DNA of 22,545 bases. It comes from Nitrosopumilales archaeon (lineage in GTDB: Archaea > Thermoproteota > Nitrososphaeria > Nitrososphaerales > Nitrososphaeraceae). Each line of letters begins with the position of its first letter. The stretch's first letter is position 1. The notes under the pieces are model-generated. The model was not told the origin of the DNA. It saw nothing but the letters and a program-made list of their open reading frames with translations, and did no database searches. This document shows positions 1 to 15,581 of the stretch, one piece after another. Position numbers and translations under genes: made by a program. The DNA is taken from NCBI GenBank assembly GCA_044507735.1, contig JBIQJB010000031.1:1-22545 (forward strand), in the 5' to 3' direction.

Positions 1-1111
1 CCTATAGAATATAGATAAGAGTAACGTGGCTACAAAGTGCTATCATTGCAAGATAATTGGATTGACCAATGTCAAGCAGGAAGCACTTACTCAGGAATAC
101 GACAACCTGCAGCACTATCTTCAGACCAGAGAAGATAAGGGGCCGTATTCAGCCATCAAGCAGCAGGCAGACAGGTTCTACAAGACAATCAAAACTGGCA
201 AGAAATACCCCCTCTCAATACGCAACGACTTGCTGAAGATAGAAAAGAACTCCAACACAATTGCTCAATACTGGTGTAGAATACCAGTAAAGGCGATCAG
301 AGGCGGGATATGGGTTGGTATCAAACCATACGAACCGATACCAAGCGATGCAAAAATCTGCGAATCCAAACTCTACTTCAAAAACAAGAAGTGGTGGTTG
401 GACATCGTCGTGACAAAGGACGTTCCTGAGAATACTGAATACCAGAACGTGTTGGCAATCGACATGGGAATCAAGCACATAGCCTGTTCTGTGGACATGG
501 CTAGTGGCAAGACTGTTTTCTATGGCAACGACCTGAACCGTGTCAGAGGGCACTACTTCTGGTTGAGAAGAAAATTAGGCATGAAGAAAGCAATAGACAC
601 CATCAAAAAGATAGGTGACCGTGAGAAGAGGATCGTCAACGACATAATACACAAGATAAGCAGAGACATTGTCAATCAAGCAGTCGAAACAAACGCTGTG
701 ATAATACTCGGCAACATCAAGTATCTGAGAAAGAGGCGACAGAAGCAATACAGGAGAAGGATGGCAAGGCTACTAGCTGGCTTTCCATACTACAAGCTGA
801 TGCAATACATTCGGTACAAGGCGGCACTTGCAGGCATCAAGGTAATCGAGGTATCGGAAGCGTGGACTAGCCAGACTTGCCACATGTGTGGTGAAAGAGG
901 TCAACGAAAGACGCAAGGATTGTTTGAGTGCAACTGCTGTGGTGTACGAGAAGACGCAGACAGAAACGCTGCTTTCAACATCGCCAAACGAGGCTTGGGG
1001 TATTGCTCCAAGCTAGGGGTAGTTGTGAACCTGCCCGTAACCGTTGCTAGGGTAGACAGGAACCCGATGATGACAATGGAGGCTATCGGTCTATGACCGA
1101 TAGTAGTTCAC
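1..1111 (+). mobile_element. IS200/IS605-family element carrying tnpB; left end is upstream of the window, right end is at 1111
   Basis: Perfect subterminal hairpin CTATCGGTC-tat-GACCGATAG (1083-1103), preceded by GAGG and followed by ...GTTCAC. Identity with the second copy stops exactly after TCAC (1111 and 3353). No tnpA in the window. Confidence 0.88.
26..1096 (+). CDS. tnpB: RNA-guided endonuclease TnpB (IS200/IS605 family), 356 aa, rearranged RuvC-II site
   Basis: RuvC-I LAIDMG (D146), HKISRDIV helix, YKAALAGIKV, VSEAWTSQTC, zinc finger CHMC...CNCC, RuvC-III DADRNAAFNI (D312). The canonical RuvC-II Glu position is G229 (IILGNI). GTG start. Confidence 0.95.
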   Translation: MATKCYHCKIIGLTNVKQEALTQEYDNLQHYLQTREDKGPYSAIKQQADRFYKTIKTGKKYPLSIRNDLLKIEKNSNTIAQYWCRIPVKAIRGGIWVGIKPYEPIPSDAKICESKLYFKNKKWWLDIVVTKDVPENTEYQNVLAIDMGIKHIACSVDMASGKTVFYGNDLNRVRGHYFWLRRKLGMKKAIDTIKKIGDREKRIVNDIIHKISRDIVNQAVETNAVIILGNIKYLRKRRQKQYRRRMARLLAGFPYYKLMQYIRYKAALAGIKVIEVSEAWTSQTCHMCGERGQRKTQGLFECNCCGVREDADRNAAFNIAKRGLGYCSKLGVVVNLPVTVARVDRNPMMTMEAIGL

Positions 1112-1131
1112 CATTTGTAGTGGATGAAGAA
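985..1131 (+). ncRNA. TnpB omegaRNA (reRNA) scaffold overlapping the tnpB 3' end, plus guide from the right flank (from 1112)
   Basis: Stems GCTTGGGG/CTCCAAGC (993-1013), GGGTAG/CTGCCC (1017-1036), CCGTTG/CAATGG and the terminal hairpin. Loop GTGAAC (1025-1030) is complementary to terminal GTTCAC (pseudoknot). 5' end and guide length are approximate. Confidence 0.8.
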
Positions 1132-1302
1132 TTTCTCACCGACATGTGGCTCCATACTTTTGAAGGAACGCCACTGGACACGTATGAGAACAAGTACTTT
1201 TGGGAAGTAAGAGTGATAACATCAACAGAATTTGGGCAGAGAGGGTTTCATTATTGGGTGGATGCAGATTCTGGCGAGTTTCTTAAAGAACTACAAGACT
1301 GA
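1112..1302 (+). pseudogene. C-terminal remnant of a PepSY-like surface protein gene interrupted by the IS
   Basis: YFWEVRV...HYWVDADSGEFL resembles the YAVDAVSGEII and HLVDAETGRVV motifs of the 5350 and 6843 proteins. The ORF-track start at 1093 is inside the IS right end. Confidence 0.65.
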
Positions 1303-1533: not shown

Positions 1534-2589
1534 TCATTCTATGCGCACAAGGCTTGCCAGTATCTTGTCTGATGGTATCTTTTGCTCGACGCCTGCAGCA
1601 ATCGCCGCAAGGTTCCTGATCTCAAATGCCATCAGCTTGATGGATGCGAGAAGGTTTGCAACCGTAAAGACAGTGCGGTACGAGTTCATTATGCGCCTGA
1701 GCGACTCTTTCTCAAATGCCGCCTCGAGTTGCATTATGGCATCGATGTCGTTTGCAGCGCTGCGGGGGATCAGCTCCTTGTATGCGGTGCCTGCTAGCTC
1801 GCCAATCGCCTCCTGTATCTTTTCTGTGTTTATCATGCGCTGGAGCACGTCTTTTGAAACCTTGCCGGTGGTGACTATCAAGTCGCTCACTTCTGCAGGG
1901 CTCAGACCCCAGAACTTGCCGCGGAGGACTGCAAGTACATTGTATGCATCAACGTCGACCGAGACAACCTTGGTCGTGTCCTGAAGCTTGGATTCAAAGG
2001 CTACTGCCCTGTCAAGCGACTTGTAAAAGGCATGATCAAGAAAAGTGTCAAACACACGCACGTCGCCCTTTTCCTTGTATGCTTGGGCGGCCTTGCGGGC
2101 GTCTTCGCCAAATTCGCTTCCTGCAAGTGAGTTGATTGCTTCGTCAAAATCCTTGGCCACTAGAGCCTTGACGACCAGATCTCTGCGTCCCACCAGCTCT
2201 TCTGCCCTCAAGTTTACTTTTGGCAGCAGCTCTTCATAGGTCCTGCCCAGGGCCTTACCCTTCAGGATGATCTTCAAGTTCCATGTGATGTATCTGACAA
2301 AATAGGCGCTGAGTATTGCCGAGCCGTTTGCGATGTTGACTATTTTTGCGTGCTGGTTGACAAGGTGTTCACGCAGCGCCGACTCGACCTTTTCCGCAGT
2401 ATATGGCTTGGTTAGTTTTGCAAGAGCGTCAAGATAAACAGTGTTTTTCATTCTGGTAACGAGCTCGTCCACATCTCTGGACTCTGCCAGAGTCTGGAAC
2501 TCGGTCCTGGATAGCATCTTGCCTCTCAGGCTGTGGGCAAGAACGGTACCGAATATCTTGTTTGGCAGGCTGACCTTGTTAGTGTTCAA
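1534..2589 (-). CDS. atpC: A/V-type ATP synthase subunit C (AC39 family)
   Basis: 351 aa helical protein with SLRGKMLSR, WNLKIILKGK, LDHAFY, VDAYNVLAVLRGK and EIRNLAAIAAG, typical of subunit C. TTG start, with a TATA-like TTTATAAA about 25 nt upstream. Confidence 0.9.
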   Translation of the reverse strand: MNTNKVSLPNKIFGTVLAHSLRGKMLSRTEFQTLAESRDVDELVTRMKNTVYLDALAKLTKPYTAEKVESALREHLVNQHAKIVNIANGSAILSAYFVRYITWNLKIILKGKALGRTYEELLPKVNLRAEELVGRRDLVVKALVAKDFDEAINSLAGSEFGEDARKAAQAYKEKGDVRVFDTFLDHAFYKSLDRAVAFESKLQDTTKVVSVDVDAYNVLAVLRGKFWGLSPAEVSDLIVTTGKVSKDVLQRMINTEKIQEAIGELAGTAYKELIPRSAANDIDAIMQLEAAFEKESLRRIMNSYRTVFTVANLLASIKLMAFEIRNLAAIAAGVEQKIPSDKILASLVRIE

Positions 2590-2671
2590 GCTGCACTCAG
2601 TTCCTCTGGTACTTTATAAAAACTATCCTTAATCTTCTACAGATGGTATCAACCCCTTCTTGAACCTTTGG

Positions 2672-2985
2672 CTACGTTTTGCCCCATCCATCTCTTCTTC
2701 TTGCAGCTATTATGCTGCTGGACAACGCTATCGAAACTCCAGCAGTGACTATTGACAGAGAACCAGCAAATTCCGGTATTGCGGTGGTGCCTACAATCTC
2801 TATTGTGTCTGCCCTTTCATGTGGCATTGATATAGAGATCGAGGTGAGGTTCTCGTTGACTGGATTGCCGTAATAGCGCGGACTATAATCGATGTCATAC
2901 ACACGGTGCTGTCCATCAAGAAACACACTGTATGGTCCGCCCAGCATCTCTTTTGGAAATGTGACTGTAAATTCAGCTGCTTTAT
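2672..2985 (-). pseudogene. C-terminal fragment of a PEFG-CTERM-like surface protein, cut by the 2986-3353 element
   Basis: TVTFPKEMLGGPYSVFLDG...IEIVGTTAIPEF followed by a TM helix and basic tail. The apparent N-terminus of ORF 2672..3244 reads through the mobile element. Confidence 0.75.
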
Positions 2986-3353
2986 AGTGAAATTTGGCGA
3001 GAAGACCACTGGACTTGTCCAGTGGATGAATCGCTGCAGTATTTTTAAAAAGCTGGATGTATACCAAGTGTAGGATGAAGCGACGTCTGTGGCGCTCGCT
3101 GACATTGCACAGGAACCAAGCTGAGTAGTGCGGTCGCCGACAATACAGCGACAGGGCGAGTGACATGGTTAGAAGTAGCCCAACCAGGTCTGAGGCTATA
3201 TGTCTCAGATAGGGGTCGAGCGGCATCCTGTAATTCCTCCGCAAGGGAGAATAGACAGGGAAACCAGTGAACCGACCCAGAACTGCTGCTAGGGTAGACA
3301 GGAACCCGATGATGACAGCAGAGGCTATCGGTCTATGACCGATAGTAGTTCAC
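2986..3353 (+). mobile_element. Non-autonomous IS200/IS605 derivative (368 bp) with left end, promoter, omegaRNA and right end
   Basis: Left-end hairpin CCACTGGAC-tt-GTCCAGTGG (3006-3025) starts 20 nt after TTAT (2982-2985). 3267-3353 matches 1025-1111 at 78/87 nt, with an identical right-end hairpin and TCAC terminus. No tnpA or tnpB ORF inside. Confidence 0.88.
3042..3051 (+). promoter_or_regulatory. Putative TATA box inside the non-autonomous element
   Basis: TTTTTAAAAA just after the left-end hairpin. Predicted start near 3070-3076, just before the structured region. Confidence 0.5.
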
Positions 3354-3373
3354 AGGCACGCTCGATTTAGCCG
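3075..3373 (+). ncRNA. Stand-alone expanded omegaRNA-like RNA with guide AGGCACGCTCGATTTAGCCG (from 3354)
   Basis: Same four stems and pseudoknot as 985-1111, with compensatory substitutions. Extra stem-loop at 3219-3266 and extra 5' stems at 3079-3186. Transcript ends are inferred. Confidence 0.7.
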
Positions 3374-3573
3374 CGGAGCCTCACCTCGACCCTTGCGTCG
3401 AAAAAAGCCCCTGTATTGTTTTGAAAAATTCCAAGTGGGAATCAGCTACAGCGAGAAAGACCGTTAATGGATCTTGACTGTTGATTGTTTAACTACTGAA
3501 AACAGCATTATACTTAAAGGCTTTAACTATAAAGATAATGAGTTTAAATAGCATAGAGCGCTAATAGTTAAGG

Positions 3574-4674
3574 ATGACATTAGTTATCAAAAGCATCAAT
3601 GGTATTTCATACTATTACTACCAAGATAGGGTAAAGACTACCGGCAAAGGAAGGGCTAGAACTATAAGCACCTTTGTAGGCAGGACTGACCTTAATCCCC
3701 AGGATCTTGCTGCAGCACAAAGAATTGCTTTGGACAGGCATATTGTCAAATTGTTCAAGGCTGCATCTCTGATCAAAGATCAAGGATATCATTTTGAAAC
3801 ATGGCAATATACTCAAGAGGATCTAGATGCTTTCGAATTCGTGAAGGTAATCTATCAGATAGTCAAGAATCAGATCCAGCAAGATGAATTGATGGAATAC
3901 GAAAAGATGTTCTATAATAGGTATGTCTATGGGACCACCGCCATAGAAGGAAATATGTTAAGTGAGCAGGAAACTGCCAAAGTACTTGAAACTGGTCTGA
4001 CAGTGGAAAATAGACCTCTGTCTGATACTATTGCGGTAGCAAACTACAATGATGTAAAGAAATTCATGAAGGATTACTCTGCAGGTGTATCTGAGAATAT
4101 GATAAAGACGGTTCACACCATTTTGATGAAAGGAATGAAGGGTGATGATGGATTACCTATACCGCTTGGTGAATACAGAAAGAATCGTTCAAGGATCCAC
4201 GGACTAGGTTATACTCCACCGCCTCCAGAAGCTATTTCAGAACATATGAGGTACTTGCTTGCCGAATATGATGATCGTATTAGGAGAAAAGTGCATCCTG
4301 TAGAGGCTGCGGTAATCTTCCATCAAAAACTTGAAGAGATACACCCATTCAAGGACGGGAATGGTCGCACTGGACGGGAGATACTAAACTTCATGCTGCA
4401 GAAGGCCGGGTATCCGCCGATTTACATAACACCTAAGGAGCGTAAGAACTATATCGATGCTTTAGAGCAAGGCAATAGTCAAAACTATTCTCCTCTTATG
4501 ACTTTTGTAGCGACTAGGATGGCTGCTACGCTATGGTATATGTTCTCGCGAACAAAGATATTCGACGTTGCAACTGAGGCTCTATCTAAAGTCGCTGCCA
4601 GTCCAAATGAGCACGGCATAAAGAAAGTATTAGAGCGACTGGCAAACTATCATTCGTCGCCTGATCTTCCTTAA
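3574..4674 (+). CDS. Fic family protein (AMPylase-type, with an intramolecular inhibitory motif)
   Basis: Intact HPFKDGNGRTGR Fic motif. TTAIEGN is an (S/T)xxxE(G/N) inhibitory helix N-terminal to the core. TTTAAATA at 3543-3550. Confidence 0.93.
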   Translation: MTLVIKSINGISYYYYQDRVKTTGKGRARTISTFVGRTDLNPQDLAAAQRIALDRHIVKLFKAASLIKDQGYHFETWQYTQEDLDAFEFVKVIYQIVKNQIQQDELMEYEKMFYNRYVYGTTAIEGNMLSEQETAKVLETGLTVENRPLSDTIAVANYNDVKKFMKDYSAGVSENMIKTVHTILMKGMKGDDGLPIPLGEYRKNRSRIHGLGYTPPPPEAISEHMRYLLAEYDDRIRRKVHPVEAAVIFHQKLEEIHPFKDGNGRTGREILNFMLQKAGYPPIYITPKERKNYIDALEQGNSQNYSPLMTFVATRMAATLWYMFSRTKIFDVATEALSKVAASPNEHGIKKVLERLANYHSSPDLP

Positions 4675-14189: not shown

Positions 14190-15581
14190 ATGGCAAAAAC
14201 ATTTGAAGAATTAGGATTGAGTGCACAACTAACAAGAGCACTCTCCGAAAATGGATTTGAGGCGCCGTTCCCTATACAAGAGGCAGCTATACCGCTTGTT
14301 TTGGAAGGTAAAGATGTCATAGGACAGGCGCACACAGGAACCGGCAAGACGGCGGCATTTGGACTGCCGATATTGCAAAAGATCAAGGCAGACGGGCCGG
14401 TACAGGCCCTGATACTTGCGCCGACAAGGGAACTTTCGGTGCAGGTGACAACCGAGATCAACAGGTTCGCAAAGTACACAGGAGTCAAGACCGTCGCAAT
14501 CTATGGCGGCCAAAGCATGAACGTACAGCTTGACAAGCTCCAGCGCGGGGCCCAGATAGTGGTCGCGACACCCGGCAGGCTTATCGACCACATAAAGCAG
14601 GGTTCGATAATCCTCGACGATGTCAAGTTCGTCGTGCTCGACGAAGCAGACAGGATGCTAGACATGGGCTTCATTGACGACATCAAGTTCATCCTGTTCT
14701 ACGTGAACGAGGATCGCCAGACATGTCTGTTCTCTGCAACAATGCCTCCGGAAATCTTGCGGCTGGCAGAGGAATACATGAAGCGCGACGAAATTGAGCA
14801 TGTCAAGCTCAACGAAGAAGAAGTCACGCTTGAAACAATCGACCAGTCATATCTGGTGGTTGAAGAGCGCGAAAAGTTCAGGCACCTGGTCAACTTTATC
14901 AAGCAGAACAATGGAAACAAGAGCCAGACAATAGTATTCGCTGCTACAAAGCAGCGCGCAGACAGGGTCGCATACCAGTTAAGGCGCGAAGGCCTCAATG
15001 CAGTCGCAATCCACGGCGACCTGTCGCAAAGGCAGCGCGACAACGCGATGGGCAAGTTCAGGAAAGGAACAGAAGACATCCTGGTTGCGACAGACATTGC
15101 AGCAAGGGGAATCGATGTCCCGTCAGTCGGAAACGTCATCAACTACGACATTCCAGACGACCCCAACGTGTACTTCCACAGGATCGGCAGGACCGCGAGG
15201 GCCGGCGCAGAGGGCAGGGCGATATCTCTTGTCTCAAATGACAGGATCGCAGACTTTGACCGCATCCTTGCACAGACCCATCTCCCGATACGCAAGCTCA
15301 ATGACGAAATGGGAATCGTTGTGCCGGTAGTCGCGCAGCGTCAGCCGCAGATGTATGGCGGCGGATCCAGAAGGCGCGGCGGCTACGGCGGCGGTGGCGG
15401 CGGCAGACGCTTTGGCAGCGGCGGTCGCGGATACCGCGGTGGCGGTGGGAGCGGTGGCGGCGGATACGGAGGAAGGCGCGGCGGCCACAGGAGCTTTGGC
15501 GGTGGCGGCTATCGTGGTGGCGGAGGCAGACACTACGGCGGCAACCGCGGCTACTACGGCGGGAGCGGCTCCAGCTATTAA
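14190..15581 (+). CDS. deaD: DEAD-box RNA helicase (DeaD/CshA-like) with an RGG/YGG-rich tail
   Basis: Q motif, AHTGTGKT, PTREL, TPGR, DEAD, SAT, ARGID and HRIGRTAR, then a long G/R/Y tail. ATG at 14190 is preferred. Confidence 0.95.
   Translation: MAKTFEELGLSAQLTRALSENGFEAPFPIQEAAIPLVLEGKDVIGQAHTGTGKTAAFGLPILQKIKADGPVQALILAPTRELSVQVTTEINRFAKYTGVKTVAIYGGQSMNVQLDKLQRGAQIVVATPGRLIDHIKQGSIILDDVKFVVLDEADRMLDMGFIDDIKFILFYVNEDRQTCLFSATMPPEILRLAEEYMKRDEIEHVKLNEEEVTLETIDQSYLVVEEREKFRHLVNFIKQNNGNKSQTIVFAATKQRADRVAYQLRREGLNAVAIHGDLSQRQRDNAMGKFRKGTEDILVATDIAARGIDVPSVGNVINYDIPDDPNVYFHRIGRTARAGAEGRAISLVSNDRIADFDRILAQTHLPIRKLNDEMGIVVPVVAQRQPQMYGGGSRRRGGYGGGGGGRRFGSGGRGYRGGGGSGGGGYGGRRGGHRSFGGGGYRGGGGRHYGGNRGYYGGSGSSY

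What the first reader, a model, noticed from the sequence alone, without database searches (positions are those of the whole stretch)
2986..3373. Protein-free mini-transposon that is essentially a guide-RNA gene, 1.9 kb from a tnpB
Seen: a 368-bp unit with a left-end hairpin (3006-3025), a TATA box (3042-3051), a structured RNA, and a right end identical to that of the tnpB element (GAGG, hairpin, GTTCAC). It has no tnpA or tnpB. Its right flank gives a different guide (AGGCACGCTCGATTTAGCCG) from the tnpB copy (CATTTGTAGTGGATGAAGAA). Established: TnpB uses a right-end-derived omegaRNA plus flank as guide, and Y1 TnpA acts on end hairpins. Inference: this parasite borrows TnpA for mobility and TnpB for retention/homing, so one nuclease would be programmed by several dispersed, self-transcribed guides in a thaumarchaeote.
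Basis: partly seen in the sequence, partly recalled or inferred. Interest (0 to 1): 0.9.

Follow-up and report, generated by a model that had tools for sequence, protein, structure and literature searches.

The report
Protein-free guide-RNA mini-transposon (PATE)
A 368-base hitchhiker of an IS200/IS605 jumping gene keeps only the two ends, a promoter and the guide-RNA part; such elements are already known in bacteria and salt-loving archaea, and this one, from a Nitrososphaera-like archaeon, also carries an RNA domain of its own.

Summary
Window 2986-3353 is a 368-nt protein-free element. It has the left-end hairpin and the right end of the neighbouring tnpA-tnpB insertion sequence, and TTTAT lies at its left junction.

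A covariance model built only from six tnpB-linked 3' ends matches 3179-3353 over its full length (115.5 bits). The unit therefore carries a complete copy of the RNA module that sits at the end of tnpB, not just a transposon end.

It is not a local deletion relic. It belongs to a family of 12 copies in 4 of 72 genomes of the genus. Two copies have precise empty sites in this genome, with no target duplication.

The family keeps an A/T box inherited from tnpB-only IS promoters. It also keeps a roughly 110-nt 5' RNA domain that is absent from the parent IS. A second family shares that domain, but its 3' module matches a different TnpB lineage.

The concept of a PATE encoding an omegaRNA used in trans is already in print (Meers et al. 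2023).

Function here is inferred. No RNA data were available. The resident tnpA has ATA where its ortholog has ATG. The TnpB has a rearranged RuvC-II site. This genome holds only one intact copy of this family.

The parts
2981..2985 (+). TTTAT target motif (predicted TnpA target and TnpB TAM) just 5' of the left end
   Evidence: All 7 family-1 copies with a readable left junction have TTAT there, and 6 of 7 have TTTAT. The full IS has TTTTAT.
2986..3031 (+). Left end (LE) with subterminal hairpin at 3006-3025
   Evidence: 3000-3031 is 93.75% identical to C34:489-458, the LE of the tnpA-tnpB IS, with one compensatory stem change. Unit positions 4-64 are 90-91% identical to the LE of tnpB-only ISs L014 and L023.
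3040..3051 (+). A/T-rich TATA-like box; predicted promoter of the RNA (inferred)
   Evidence: Present in unit, L011, L020, L021 and L022. It is homologous to the LE-proximal box that precedes tnpB by about 50-60 nt in tnpB-only ISs. No transcript data.
3071..3187 (+). PATE-specific 5' RNA domain, absent from the parent IS
   Evidence: No detectable similarity to the tnpB 3' coding region (z = 1.2), but related to the second PATE family (z = 3.6). Aligned. 3075-3133 is 83% identical to C9:3922-3980.
3188..3210 (+). Hairpin A, the first helix of the omegaRNA-type module
   Evidence: Model R1 alignment. The same helix lies at 992-1014 in the IS with a different sequence.
3213..3278 (+). Stem B (GGGUCG/CGACCC) with a 54-nt loop; GUGAAC at 3267-3272 is the predicted 5' strand of the pseudoknot
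   Evidence: 53-nt insertion relative to the IS model. GUGAAC:GUUCAC pairing is kept in 13-15 of 15 sequences per pair.
3283..3321 (+). Stem C (CUGCUG...CAGCAG around GGGU...ACCC)
   Evidence: Two compensatory pair changes against the IS copy (CCGUUG...CAAUGG). Further compensatory variants occur in L056 and L016.
3324..3353 (+). Right-end hairpin (3324-3346) and terminal AGTTCAC; the transposon boundary is at 3353
   Evidence: Identical to 1082-1111 of the resident IS. The other family members carry a CCGAAC...GTTCGG hairpin.
3354..3373 (+). Flank that would be read as the guide (AGGCACGCTCGATTTAGCCG); inferred
   Evidence: No other site in the genome matches its first 16 nt with 2 or fewer mismatches.
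26..1096 (+). tnpB of the resident IS (356 aa)
   Evidence: NF040570 guided_TnpB 177.6 bits against a cutoff of 100. PF07282. D146, G229 in place of the RuvC-II glutamate, E278, D312 and two CxxC motifs.
983..1111 (+). tnpB-linked omegaRNA-type module and right end of the resident IS
   Evidence: Model R1, 148.9 bits. The right end closes at 1111, 15 nt past the tnpB stop.
2672..2985 (-). 3' remnant of a gene cut off exactly at the left junction
   Evidence: The ortholog in G066:C105 continues with about 185 N-terminal residues that are absent from this genome.

Best explanation

Shown from sequence:
- It has the subterminal hairpins of the resident IS at both ends.
- It has no protein gene.
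- Its last 175 nt hold a complete copy of the four-helix RNA module that overlaps the 3' end of tnpB.
- That module ends exactly at the transposon boundary.
- Its relatives inserted 3' of T(T)TAT without duplication.

Inferred:
- An archaeal promoter inherited from tnpB-only ISs (box at 3040-3051) starts an RNA near 3071.
- The RNA runs through the right end into the flank, giving an omegaRNA whose guide is 3354 onward.
- TnpA supplied in trans moves the element as single-stranded DNA.
- TnpB supplied in trans loads the RNA and cuts the TTTAT-plus-guide site left after excision, so recombination restores the element.

The element is a mosaic. One part is a PATE-lineage chassis: left end, promoter, a 5' domain of about 110 nt and hairpin A. 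The other part is a 3' TnpB handle and right end that matches the IS living in the same genome.
For: **Complete RNA module.** Model R1 was built from 6 tnpB-linked 3' ends only. It matches 3179-3353 across model positions 1-128 at 115.5 bits, with one 53-nt loop insertion. It also gave 11 further full-length matches with E of 4.2e-07 or better among the PATE and deletion-derivative loci searched.

**Conserved structure.**
- The consensus structure of 7 family members has 62 pairs.
- 90.2% of cells are paired, against 30-46% when partners are slid.
- 14 pairs change on both sides, against 6.0 in shuffles (0 of 500 reach the observed value).

**Pseudoknot-like pairing.** The last 6 nt pair with a strand about 85 nt upstream, as GUGAAC:GUUCAC. 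The pairing is re-made with other letters in the second lineage: UUGACUA:UAGUCAA and GUUGAC:GUCAAC. This parallels the ISDra2 omegaRNA pseudoknot (PMC10097598, passages).

**Family and mobility.**
- 12 copies occur in 4 of 72 genomes of the genus.
- All 10 readable right flanks differ.
- Empty sites exist in this genome for L020 (C17...atcgctttat|actttgag...) and L022 (C7...ggtattat|aatgctac...).

**Mosaic.**
- 5' domain: PATE-1 versus PATE-2 z = 3.6; versus their own ISs z = 1.2 and -0.3.
- 3' module: PATE-1 versus IS-A z = 7.0; PATE-2 versus IS-B z = 16.6 (97% identity); PATE-1 versus PATE-2 z = 0.1.

**Partners present.** The right-end hairpin is identical to that of the resident IS. IS200 TnpA (144.7 bits, cutoff 55) and guided TnpB (177.6 bits, cutoff 100) are in the same genome.
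Against: - The resident tnpA has ATA where the G071 ortholog has its ATG, and there is no ATG, GTG or TTG upstream in frame.
- The TnpB has glycine at the canonical RuvC-II glutamate position. That glycine and an alternative E278 are invariant in all 20 aligned sequences (the window TnpB and 19 relatives). The literature read only predicts activity for such rearranged sites (PMC10691335).
- Only one intact family-1 copy exists in this genome.
- Of the other three genomes with family-1 copies, G073 has a tnpB split near residue 257 and a tnpA piece with a stop. G066 has only an internal-deletion tnpB and no tnpA hit. G061 has no close tnpB. These are incomplete assemblies.
- Copies within one genome are only 83-94% alike, so there was no recent burst.
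- The unit's right flank does not continue the gene cut at its left junction, so the site has been rearranged.
- The structure test used a structure predicted from the same alignment.
Confidence: 0.7

Rival explanations
1. It is a fossil: a once-mobile PATE that is now inert in this genome. It is neither mobilised nor read by TnpB. Its conserved fold reflects only the functional master copy it descended from.
For: - The cognate tnpA lacks a canonical start.
- It is a single copy in this genome.
- Family copies are 83-94% alike within genomes.
- Partner genes are broken or not found in 3 of the 3 other genomes that hold family 1.
- The right flank has been rearranged.
- A decayed relative sits on C37 at 44.8 bits.
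Against: - The unit scores 115.5 bits with every helix intact, far above the decayed copies at 21.7-44.8 bits.
- Its right-end hairpin is identical to that of the resident IS and unlike every other family member. This argues for recent exchange or co-selection in this genome.
- A second Y1 transposase gene with an open frame is present on C21.
Confidence: 0.22
2. It is a simple internal-deletion relic of the neighbouring tnpA-tnpB IS.
For: - It shares the left and right ends with that IS and lies 1.9 kb away.
- Genuine deletion derivatives of this IS type exist elsewhere: L007/L027 (residues 69-287 lost), L033, L045 and C37.
Against: - The stretch between the left end and the 3' module (3071-3210 tested) shows no detectable similarity to the IS (z = 1.2).
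- That stretch is shared with copies in other genomes at different sites.
- The left end plus A/T box resembles tnpB-only ISs, not the tnpA-bearing neighbour.
- The true deletion derivatives look different.
Confidence: 0.03
3. The conserved 5' domain is an independent small-RNA gene carried as cargo, or a domesticated regulatory guide. The transposon ends serve only for spread.
For: - The 5' domain is conserved across two PATE families that have different 3' modules.
- A fragment of it occurs alone at C9:3922-3980.
- In ISDra2 the corresponding 5' region is dispensable for cleavage.
Against: - No Rfam family matches at E up to 1.
- The guide has no second target in the genome.
- The consensus fold pairs the 5' domain with the PATE-specific loop of stem B, which suggests one RNA.
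Confidence: 0.05

Closest known systems
PATEs of Haloquadratum walsbyi (Dyall-Smith et al. 2011, PMC3119063; passages read)
   Same: No terminal inverted repeats, near-terminal palindromes related to IS605-type transposons, no target duplication, too short to encode a transposase, and heterogeneous families.
   Different: Those were described before guide RNAs were known, and many are terminal-only fusions as short as 52 bp. This element keeps a full omegaRNA-type module, a promoter-like box and an extra 5' domain. Its host is a Nitrososphaera-like archaeon, going by the record titles of relatives.
PATE-like elements of Geobacillus stearothermophilus that encode omegaRNAs (Meers et al. 2023 preprint, PMC10055086; passages read)
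   Same: Protein-free elements with IS ends. The paper says they often encode omegaRNAs that TnpB from another IS must act on in trans, and that TnpA mobilises them in trans.
   Different: Those are bacterial. The passages I read do not mention an own promoter, a PATE-specific 5' domain or exchange of the 3' module. Their Extended Data and supplements could not be seen.
ISDra2 TnpB omegaRNA (Nakagawa et al. 2023, PMC10097598; passages read)
   Same: The scaffold overlaps the 3' end of tnpB and ends at the transposon boundary. The guide-adjacent nucleotides pair with a strand about 100 nt upstream to form a pseudoknot. The scaffold is about 116 nt, and the region 5' of it is dispensable.
   Different: There is no sequence similarity. 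Here the scaffold is 128 model positions and lies almost wholly inside the tnpB reading frame. Binding and cleavage are untested. The TnpB has a rearranged RuvC-II site.
Sense-overlapping transcripts of archaeal IS1341-type tnpB genes (Gomes-Filho et al. 2015, PMC4615843; title and start of abstract only)
   Same: Non-coding RNAs at the 3' end of archaeal tnpB genes.
   Different: Those are embedded in tnpB genes, not carried on protein-free elements.

Membership tests
PATE (palindrome-associated transposable element) | No terminal inverted repeats; palindromes close to both termini | tested here: met
   Hairpins at 3006-3025 and 3324-3346; the ends are not inverted copies of each other.
PATE (palindrome-associated transposable element) | Too short to encode a transposase | tested here: met
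   368 nt. The only protein similarity is a 26-residue TnpB C-terminal remnant.
PATE (palindrome-associated transposable element) | Ends related to those of an IS605-type transposon | tested here: met
   Left end 93.75% over 32 nt and right end 78 of 87 nt to the resident IS.
PATE (palindrome-associated transposable element) | Insertion without target duplication, next to a short target oligonucleotide | tested here: met
   Met for family members L020 and L022, which have contiguous empty sites in this genome. For the unit itself no empty site was found, because its right flank has no match in the other 71 genomes of the genus.
omegaRNA (TnpB guide RNA) | Homologous to the RNA module that overlaps the 3' end of tnpB, with its 3' end at the transposon boundary | tested here: met
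   Model R1, trained on tnpB-linked copies only, scores 115.5 bits over positions 1-128 and the match ends at 3353.
omegaRNA (TnpB guide RNA) | Pseudoknot between guide-adjacent nucleotides and an upstream strand | tested here: inconclusive
   GUGAAC:GUUCAC is predicted and kept in 13-15 of 15 sequences per pair, and it is re-made with other letters in lineage B. This is in silico only, with no structure.
omegaRNA (TnpB guide RNA) | Transcribed, with a guide of about 16 nt taken from the flank | not testable with these tools
   No RNA run was listed for this stretch.
omegaRNA (TnpB guide RNA) | Binds TnpB and directs TAM-dependent DNA cleavage | not testable with these tools
   Needs biochemistry.
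IS200/IS605 (the parent element) | Y1 HUH transposase TnpA | tested here: met
   NF033573 144.7 bits (cutoff 55) and PF01797 126.5 bits. The HUH motif PDHIH and the YIxxQ tyrosine are present, but the start codon position reads ATA.
Catalytically active TnpB | RuvC D-E-D triad | tested here: inconclusive
   D146 and D312 are present. The canonical glutamate is G229, with an invariant alternative E278. This pattern is described as a rearranged, predicted-active site in PMC10691335. Its supplementary tables could not be seen, so the clade name is not assigned.

The most novel reading that the evidence does not exclude
The PATEs of this genus may form an independent lineage of guide-RNA parasites. 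They share a chassis: left end, tnpB-type promoter, a conserved 5' RNA domain of about 110 nt that docks on a PATE-specific loop, and hairpin A. On this reading the chassis survives by swapping its 3' TnpB handle and right end, at a breakpoint near AGGGG, for that of whichever IS is resident. It would thereby re-tune itself to different TnpB lineages, here ones only about 40-43% identical. The 5' domain would be an adaptation for making a stable omegaRNA without the tnpB mRNA.
Probability: 0.35. Interest if true: 0.7.

Novelty: new variant of a known kind. Interest (0 to 1): 0.5.

Why it matters
If the RNA is made and loaded, one TnpB would serve guides encoded on elements that carry no protein. 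Selection would then act on the guide RNA gene as a mobile unit in its own right. That is one step closer to the dispersed or arrayed guides of CRISPR-Cas12.

The mosaic pattern gives a concrete, testable case of a guide scaffold being exchanged between transposon lineages. It also offers two natural scaffold variants for a compact archaeal TnpB with a rearranged active site: one with and one without the 53-nt loop insertion and the 5' domain.

If the element is inert, it is an ordinary PATE.

Tried and rejected
- **Rfam.** No match in the window at gathering thresholds. No match in five loci at E up to 1.
- **Expression.** No RNA holder was listed for window 2900-3450, so nothing can be said about expression.
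- **Empty-site allele in metagenomes.** Contigs of 4 DNA runs from 4 studies were laid on 2000-4400.
  - No contig joins 2985 to 3354.
  - The only joint listed (3031 to 3267, with 1426 letters between) is the full IS.
  - X19 record 9 bridges the left junction with 34 differences.
  - Contigs drop rare variants, so this does not show that excision is absent.
- **Empty site in relatives.**
  - The left flank matched G066:C105, G063, G061 and G066:C210.
  - The right flank matched none of the other 71 genomes of the genus.
  - No orthologous empty site for the unit itself could be built.
- **First relatives search.** 0 of 40 other genomes matched. The wider genus search was needed.
- **Order-wide search.** 401 genomes were searched and 11 had a match. 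Outside the genus, only left-end or right-end pieces matched (unit 4-65 or 267-368). Only 2 candidates per genome were scored, so sensitivity was low.
- **Mixed 5'-domain alignment.** RNAalifold on it gave only 7 pairs. I did not build a model from it.
- **C-terminal sorting signal.** The remnant gene's PEF...RRR tail looked to me like an archaeal sorting signal (recalled). NCBIfam and Pfam gave no match, so I make no such claim.
- **Regulatory-target idea.** No second site matches either guide within 2 mismatches, except one 2-mismatch site for the IS guide (C26, preceded by gttgaag, not TTTAT).
- **Literature.** Searches for archaeal PATE or MITE elements with TnpB acting in trans found the concept in Meers 2023. 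In the listings and passages I read, I found no description of a PATE-specific 5' domain or of 3'-module exchange. Supplements were closed and may hold such data.
- **Unpublished genomes.** The tally (11 of 72) includes G053, and the tally (11 of 401) includes G309. No specific claim rests on either.

Full report
**What is there.**

The window is the first 22.5 kb of contig C23 of a 2.33-Mb, 55-contig assembly. Close relatives of its TnpB come from records titled Nitrososphaera sp..

Positions 26-1096 encode a 356-residue TnpB (PF07282; NF040570 at 177.6 bits against a cutoff of 100). The first 55 nt of the window are identical to the end of contig C34. Joining the two contigs shows a 1558-nt IS200/IS605 element. 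Its order is TTTTAT, then a left-end hairpin, a divergent Y1 tnpA, tnpB, and a right end closing with GTAGTTCAC at 1111. The tnpA scores 144.7 bits on NF033573 (cutoff 55) and also matches PF01797.

**The unit at 2986-3353.**

- It starts right after TTTAT.
- It carries the same left-end hairpin: 3000-3031 is 93.75% identical to the IS left end, with one compensatory stem change.
- It ends with 87 nt that match 1025-1111 at 78 of 87 positions, and the last 31 nt are identical.
- It has no protein gene. A 26-residue echo of the TnpB C-terminus is all that remains.

**Is the RNA part real?**

I built covariance model R1 from six tnpB-linked 3' ends only: this window, L005, L006, L007, L056 and L016. 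Their alignment already shows compensatory changes in two stems.

- In the window, R1 finds its own training copy (983-1111, 148.9 bits) and the unit (3179-3353, 115.5 bits, E = 7.6e-31).
- The unit match spans model positions 1-128 with all four helices. The one difference is a 53-nt insertion in the loop of the second helix.
- Across the whole genome there are only two further, weak matches: C37 (44.8 bits) and C19 (21.7 bits).

The unit thus carries a complete copy of the module that overlaps the end of tnpB, well beyond what a TnpA recognition end needs.

The last six nucleotides (GUUCAC) can pair with GUGAAC 82-87 nt upstream, in both IS and PATE copies. Each of the six pairs is a standard pair in 13-15 of 15 sequences. 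In a second lineage the same long-range pairing is re-made with other letters: UUGACUA:UAGUCAA and GUUGAC:GUCAAC. This mirrors the pseudoknot of the ISDra2 omegaRNA. There, nucleotides -5 to -3 pair with -105 to -103 of a 116-nt scaffold, and the region further 5' is dispensable (PMC10097598, passages).

**It is a family, and the family moved.**

The unit is single-copy in its genome, and 0 of 40 first-drawn other genomes matched. A search of all 72 genomes held for the genus found family-1 copies in 4 of them:

| Genome | Copies |
|---|---|
| G000 (this genome) | 1 |
| G066 | 2 |
| G073 | 6 |
| G061 | 3 |

- All 7 readable left junctions have TTAT, and 6 have TTTAT.
- All 10 readable right flanks differ.
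- For two copies this genome holds the uninterrupted site. The G066:C118 copy (L020) corresponds to C17 ...atcgctttat|actttgag.... The G061:C421 copy (L022) corresponds to C7 ...ggtattat|aatgctac.... Neither shows a duplication.

That is the IS200/IS605 insertion signature, and it meets the published definition of a PATE (PMC3119063).

Copies within a genome are 83-94% alike, so the spread is not recent.

A consensus structure of seven members has 62 pairs. Of the cells, 90.2% are paired, against 30-46% when partners are slid. Fourteen pairs change on both sides, against a shuffled mean of 6.0 (0 of 500 shuffles reach the observed value). One caveat applies: the structure was predicted from the same alignment.

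**Not a deletion relic of the neighbour: a mosaic.**

The stretch 3071-3210 is not detectably related to the tnpB 3' region (z = 1.2).

A second PATE family shares this 5' domain and hairpin A with family 1 (z = 3.6). It gave matches in 7 of 72 genomes, including C52 of this genome. Yet its left end (85-88%) and its last 103 nt (97%) match another IS, L053. The TnpB of L053 is 40-43% identical to this one.

The 3' modules of the two PATE families are unrelated (z = 0.1). Each matches its own IS (z = 7.0 and 16.6). The switch lies at the AGGGG that follows hairpin A.

The A/T box is the left-end-proximal box of tnpB-only ISs. Unit positions 4-64 are 90-91% identical to L014 and L023, where the box lies about 50-60 nt before the tnpB start. 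The same relation holds between family 2 and L053.

True deletion derivatives also exist, and they look different: L007/L027, L033, L045 and C37.

I read this as a PATE chassis that exchanges its TnpB handle and right end with resident ISs. In this genome, the unit's right-end hairpin is identical to the resident IS and unlike all other family members.

**Limits on the functional claim.**

- No RNA run was available.
- The resident tnpA has ATA where the G071 ortholog has ATG. A 38%-identical Y1 gene is open on C21.
- The TnpB and 19 relatives all have glycine at the RuvC-II glutamate position and an invariant E278. Altae-Tran et al. 2023 describe this pattern as rearranged and probably active, but untested (PMC10691335).
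- Intact close tnpB genes were found only in G000 and G071, and G071 has no PATE. The tnpB is split in G073, internally deleted in G066 and not found in G061. A cognate tnpA is intact only in G000 (apart from its start codon) and in G071. These are incomplete assemblies.
- The gene cut at the unit's left junction continues in G066 with about 185 residues that this genome lacks. The right flank is therefore not the original target.
- No contig in four metagenome runs shows an empty site. This does not exclude excision.

**Compared with what is known.**

PATEs were defined in Haloquadratum. Meers et al. 2023 wrote that PATEs often encode omegaRNAs that TnpB from other IS elements must act on in trans.

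In the papers and passages I could read (searches; supplements closed), I did not find described:
- the promoter retention;
- the conserved PATE-specific 5' domain shared by two families;
- the exchange of the 3' module between TnpB lineages.

I therefore rate the find as a new variant of a known kind, of moderate interest.

Noticed in passing
G000:C34:55-480 (just left of window position 1): The resident tnpA has ATA where the 93%-identical G071 ortholog has its ATG start. No ATG, GTG or TTG lies upstream in frame, so the transposase may be poorly translated or dead.
   Followed up: partly
window 26-1096: The TnpB and 19 relatives all have glycine at the canonical RuvC-II glutamate position (G229) and an invariant E278 just before the TSQ motif. 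This is a rearranged active site that the literature predicts to be active but has not tested.
   Followed up: partly
window 2672-2985 (minus strand): A gene remnant ends exactly at the PATE left junction. The ortholog in G066:C105 has about 185 more N-terminal residues that are absent from this genome, so a deletion or rearrangement abuts the element's right side. L010 in G066 shows a comparable loss on its left side relative to G000:C9:17554-18018.
   Followed up: partly
G000:C52:50228-50459; G000:C9:3922-3980 and 33096-33263; G000:C37:14442-14563: This genome holds further PATE-like pieces: a family-2 copy on C52, fragments of the 5' domain and of a 3' module on C9, and a decayed mini-derivative on C37.
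   Followed up: partly
G000:C19:15320-16875 and G000:C1:about 36950-38190: There are two more tnpB-bearing IS200/IS605 elements of other lineages. Both close with GTAGTTCAC, like the window's IS. The C19 element has a family-2-type left end.
   Followed up: no
L026 (G073:C157) against window about 1537: In G073 a PATE copy abuts the ortholog of the V-type ATPase subunit gene end. This is 426 nt from where the IS right end sits in this window. The neighbourhood may be an insertion hot spot.
   Followed up: no
window 1093-1302 and C34 left flank: The IS appears to sit within or between PepSY-domain coding sequences (weak PF03413 match on the right flank). The two flanks are not in the same frame.
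   Followed up: no
L021, L036, L037, L038, L026 (G073): A G073 subfamily of the PATE is expanded to about 530 nt by purine-rich and trinucleotide (GTA/CTG) runs inside loops of the RNA fold.
   Followed up: no
window 15358-15562: There is a run of about 200 nt of degenerate GGC/GGT-rich repeats (10 copies of a 46-nt unit at 61-72% identity to the reference). It probably encodes a glycine-rich segment.
   Followed up: no
window 3574-4674: A Fic/DOC-domain protein gene (PF02661, 79.4 bits) lies immediately right of the PATE. Its upstream region has no match in the other 71 genomes of the genus.
   Followed up: no
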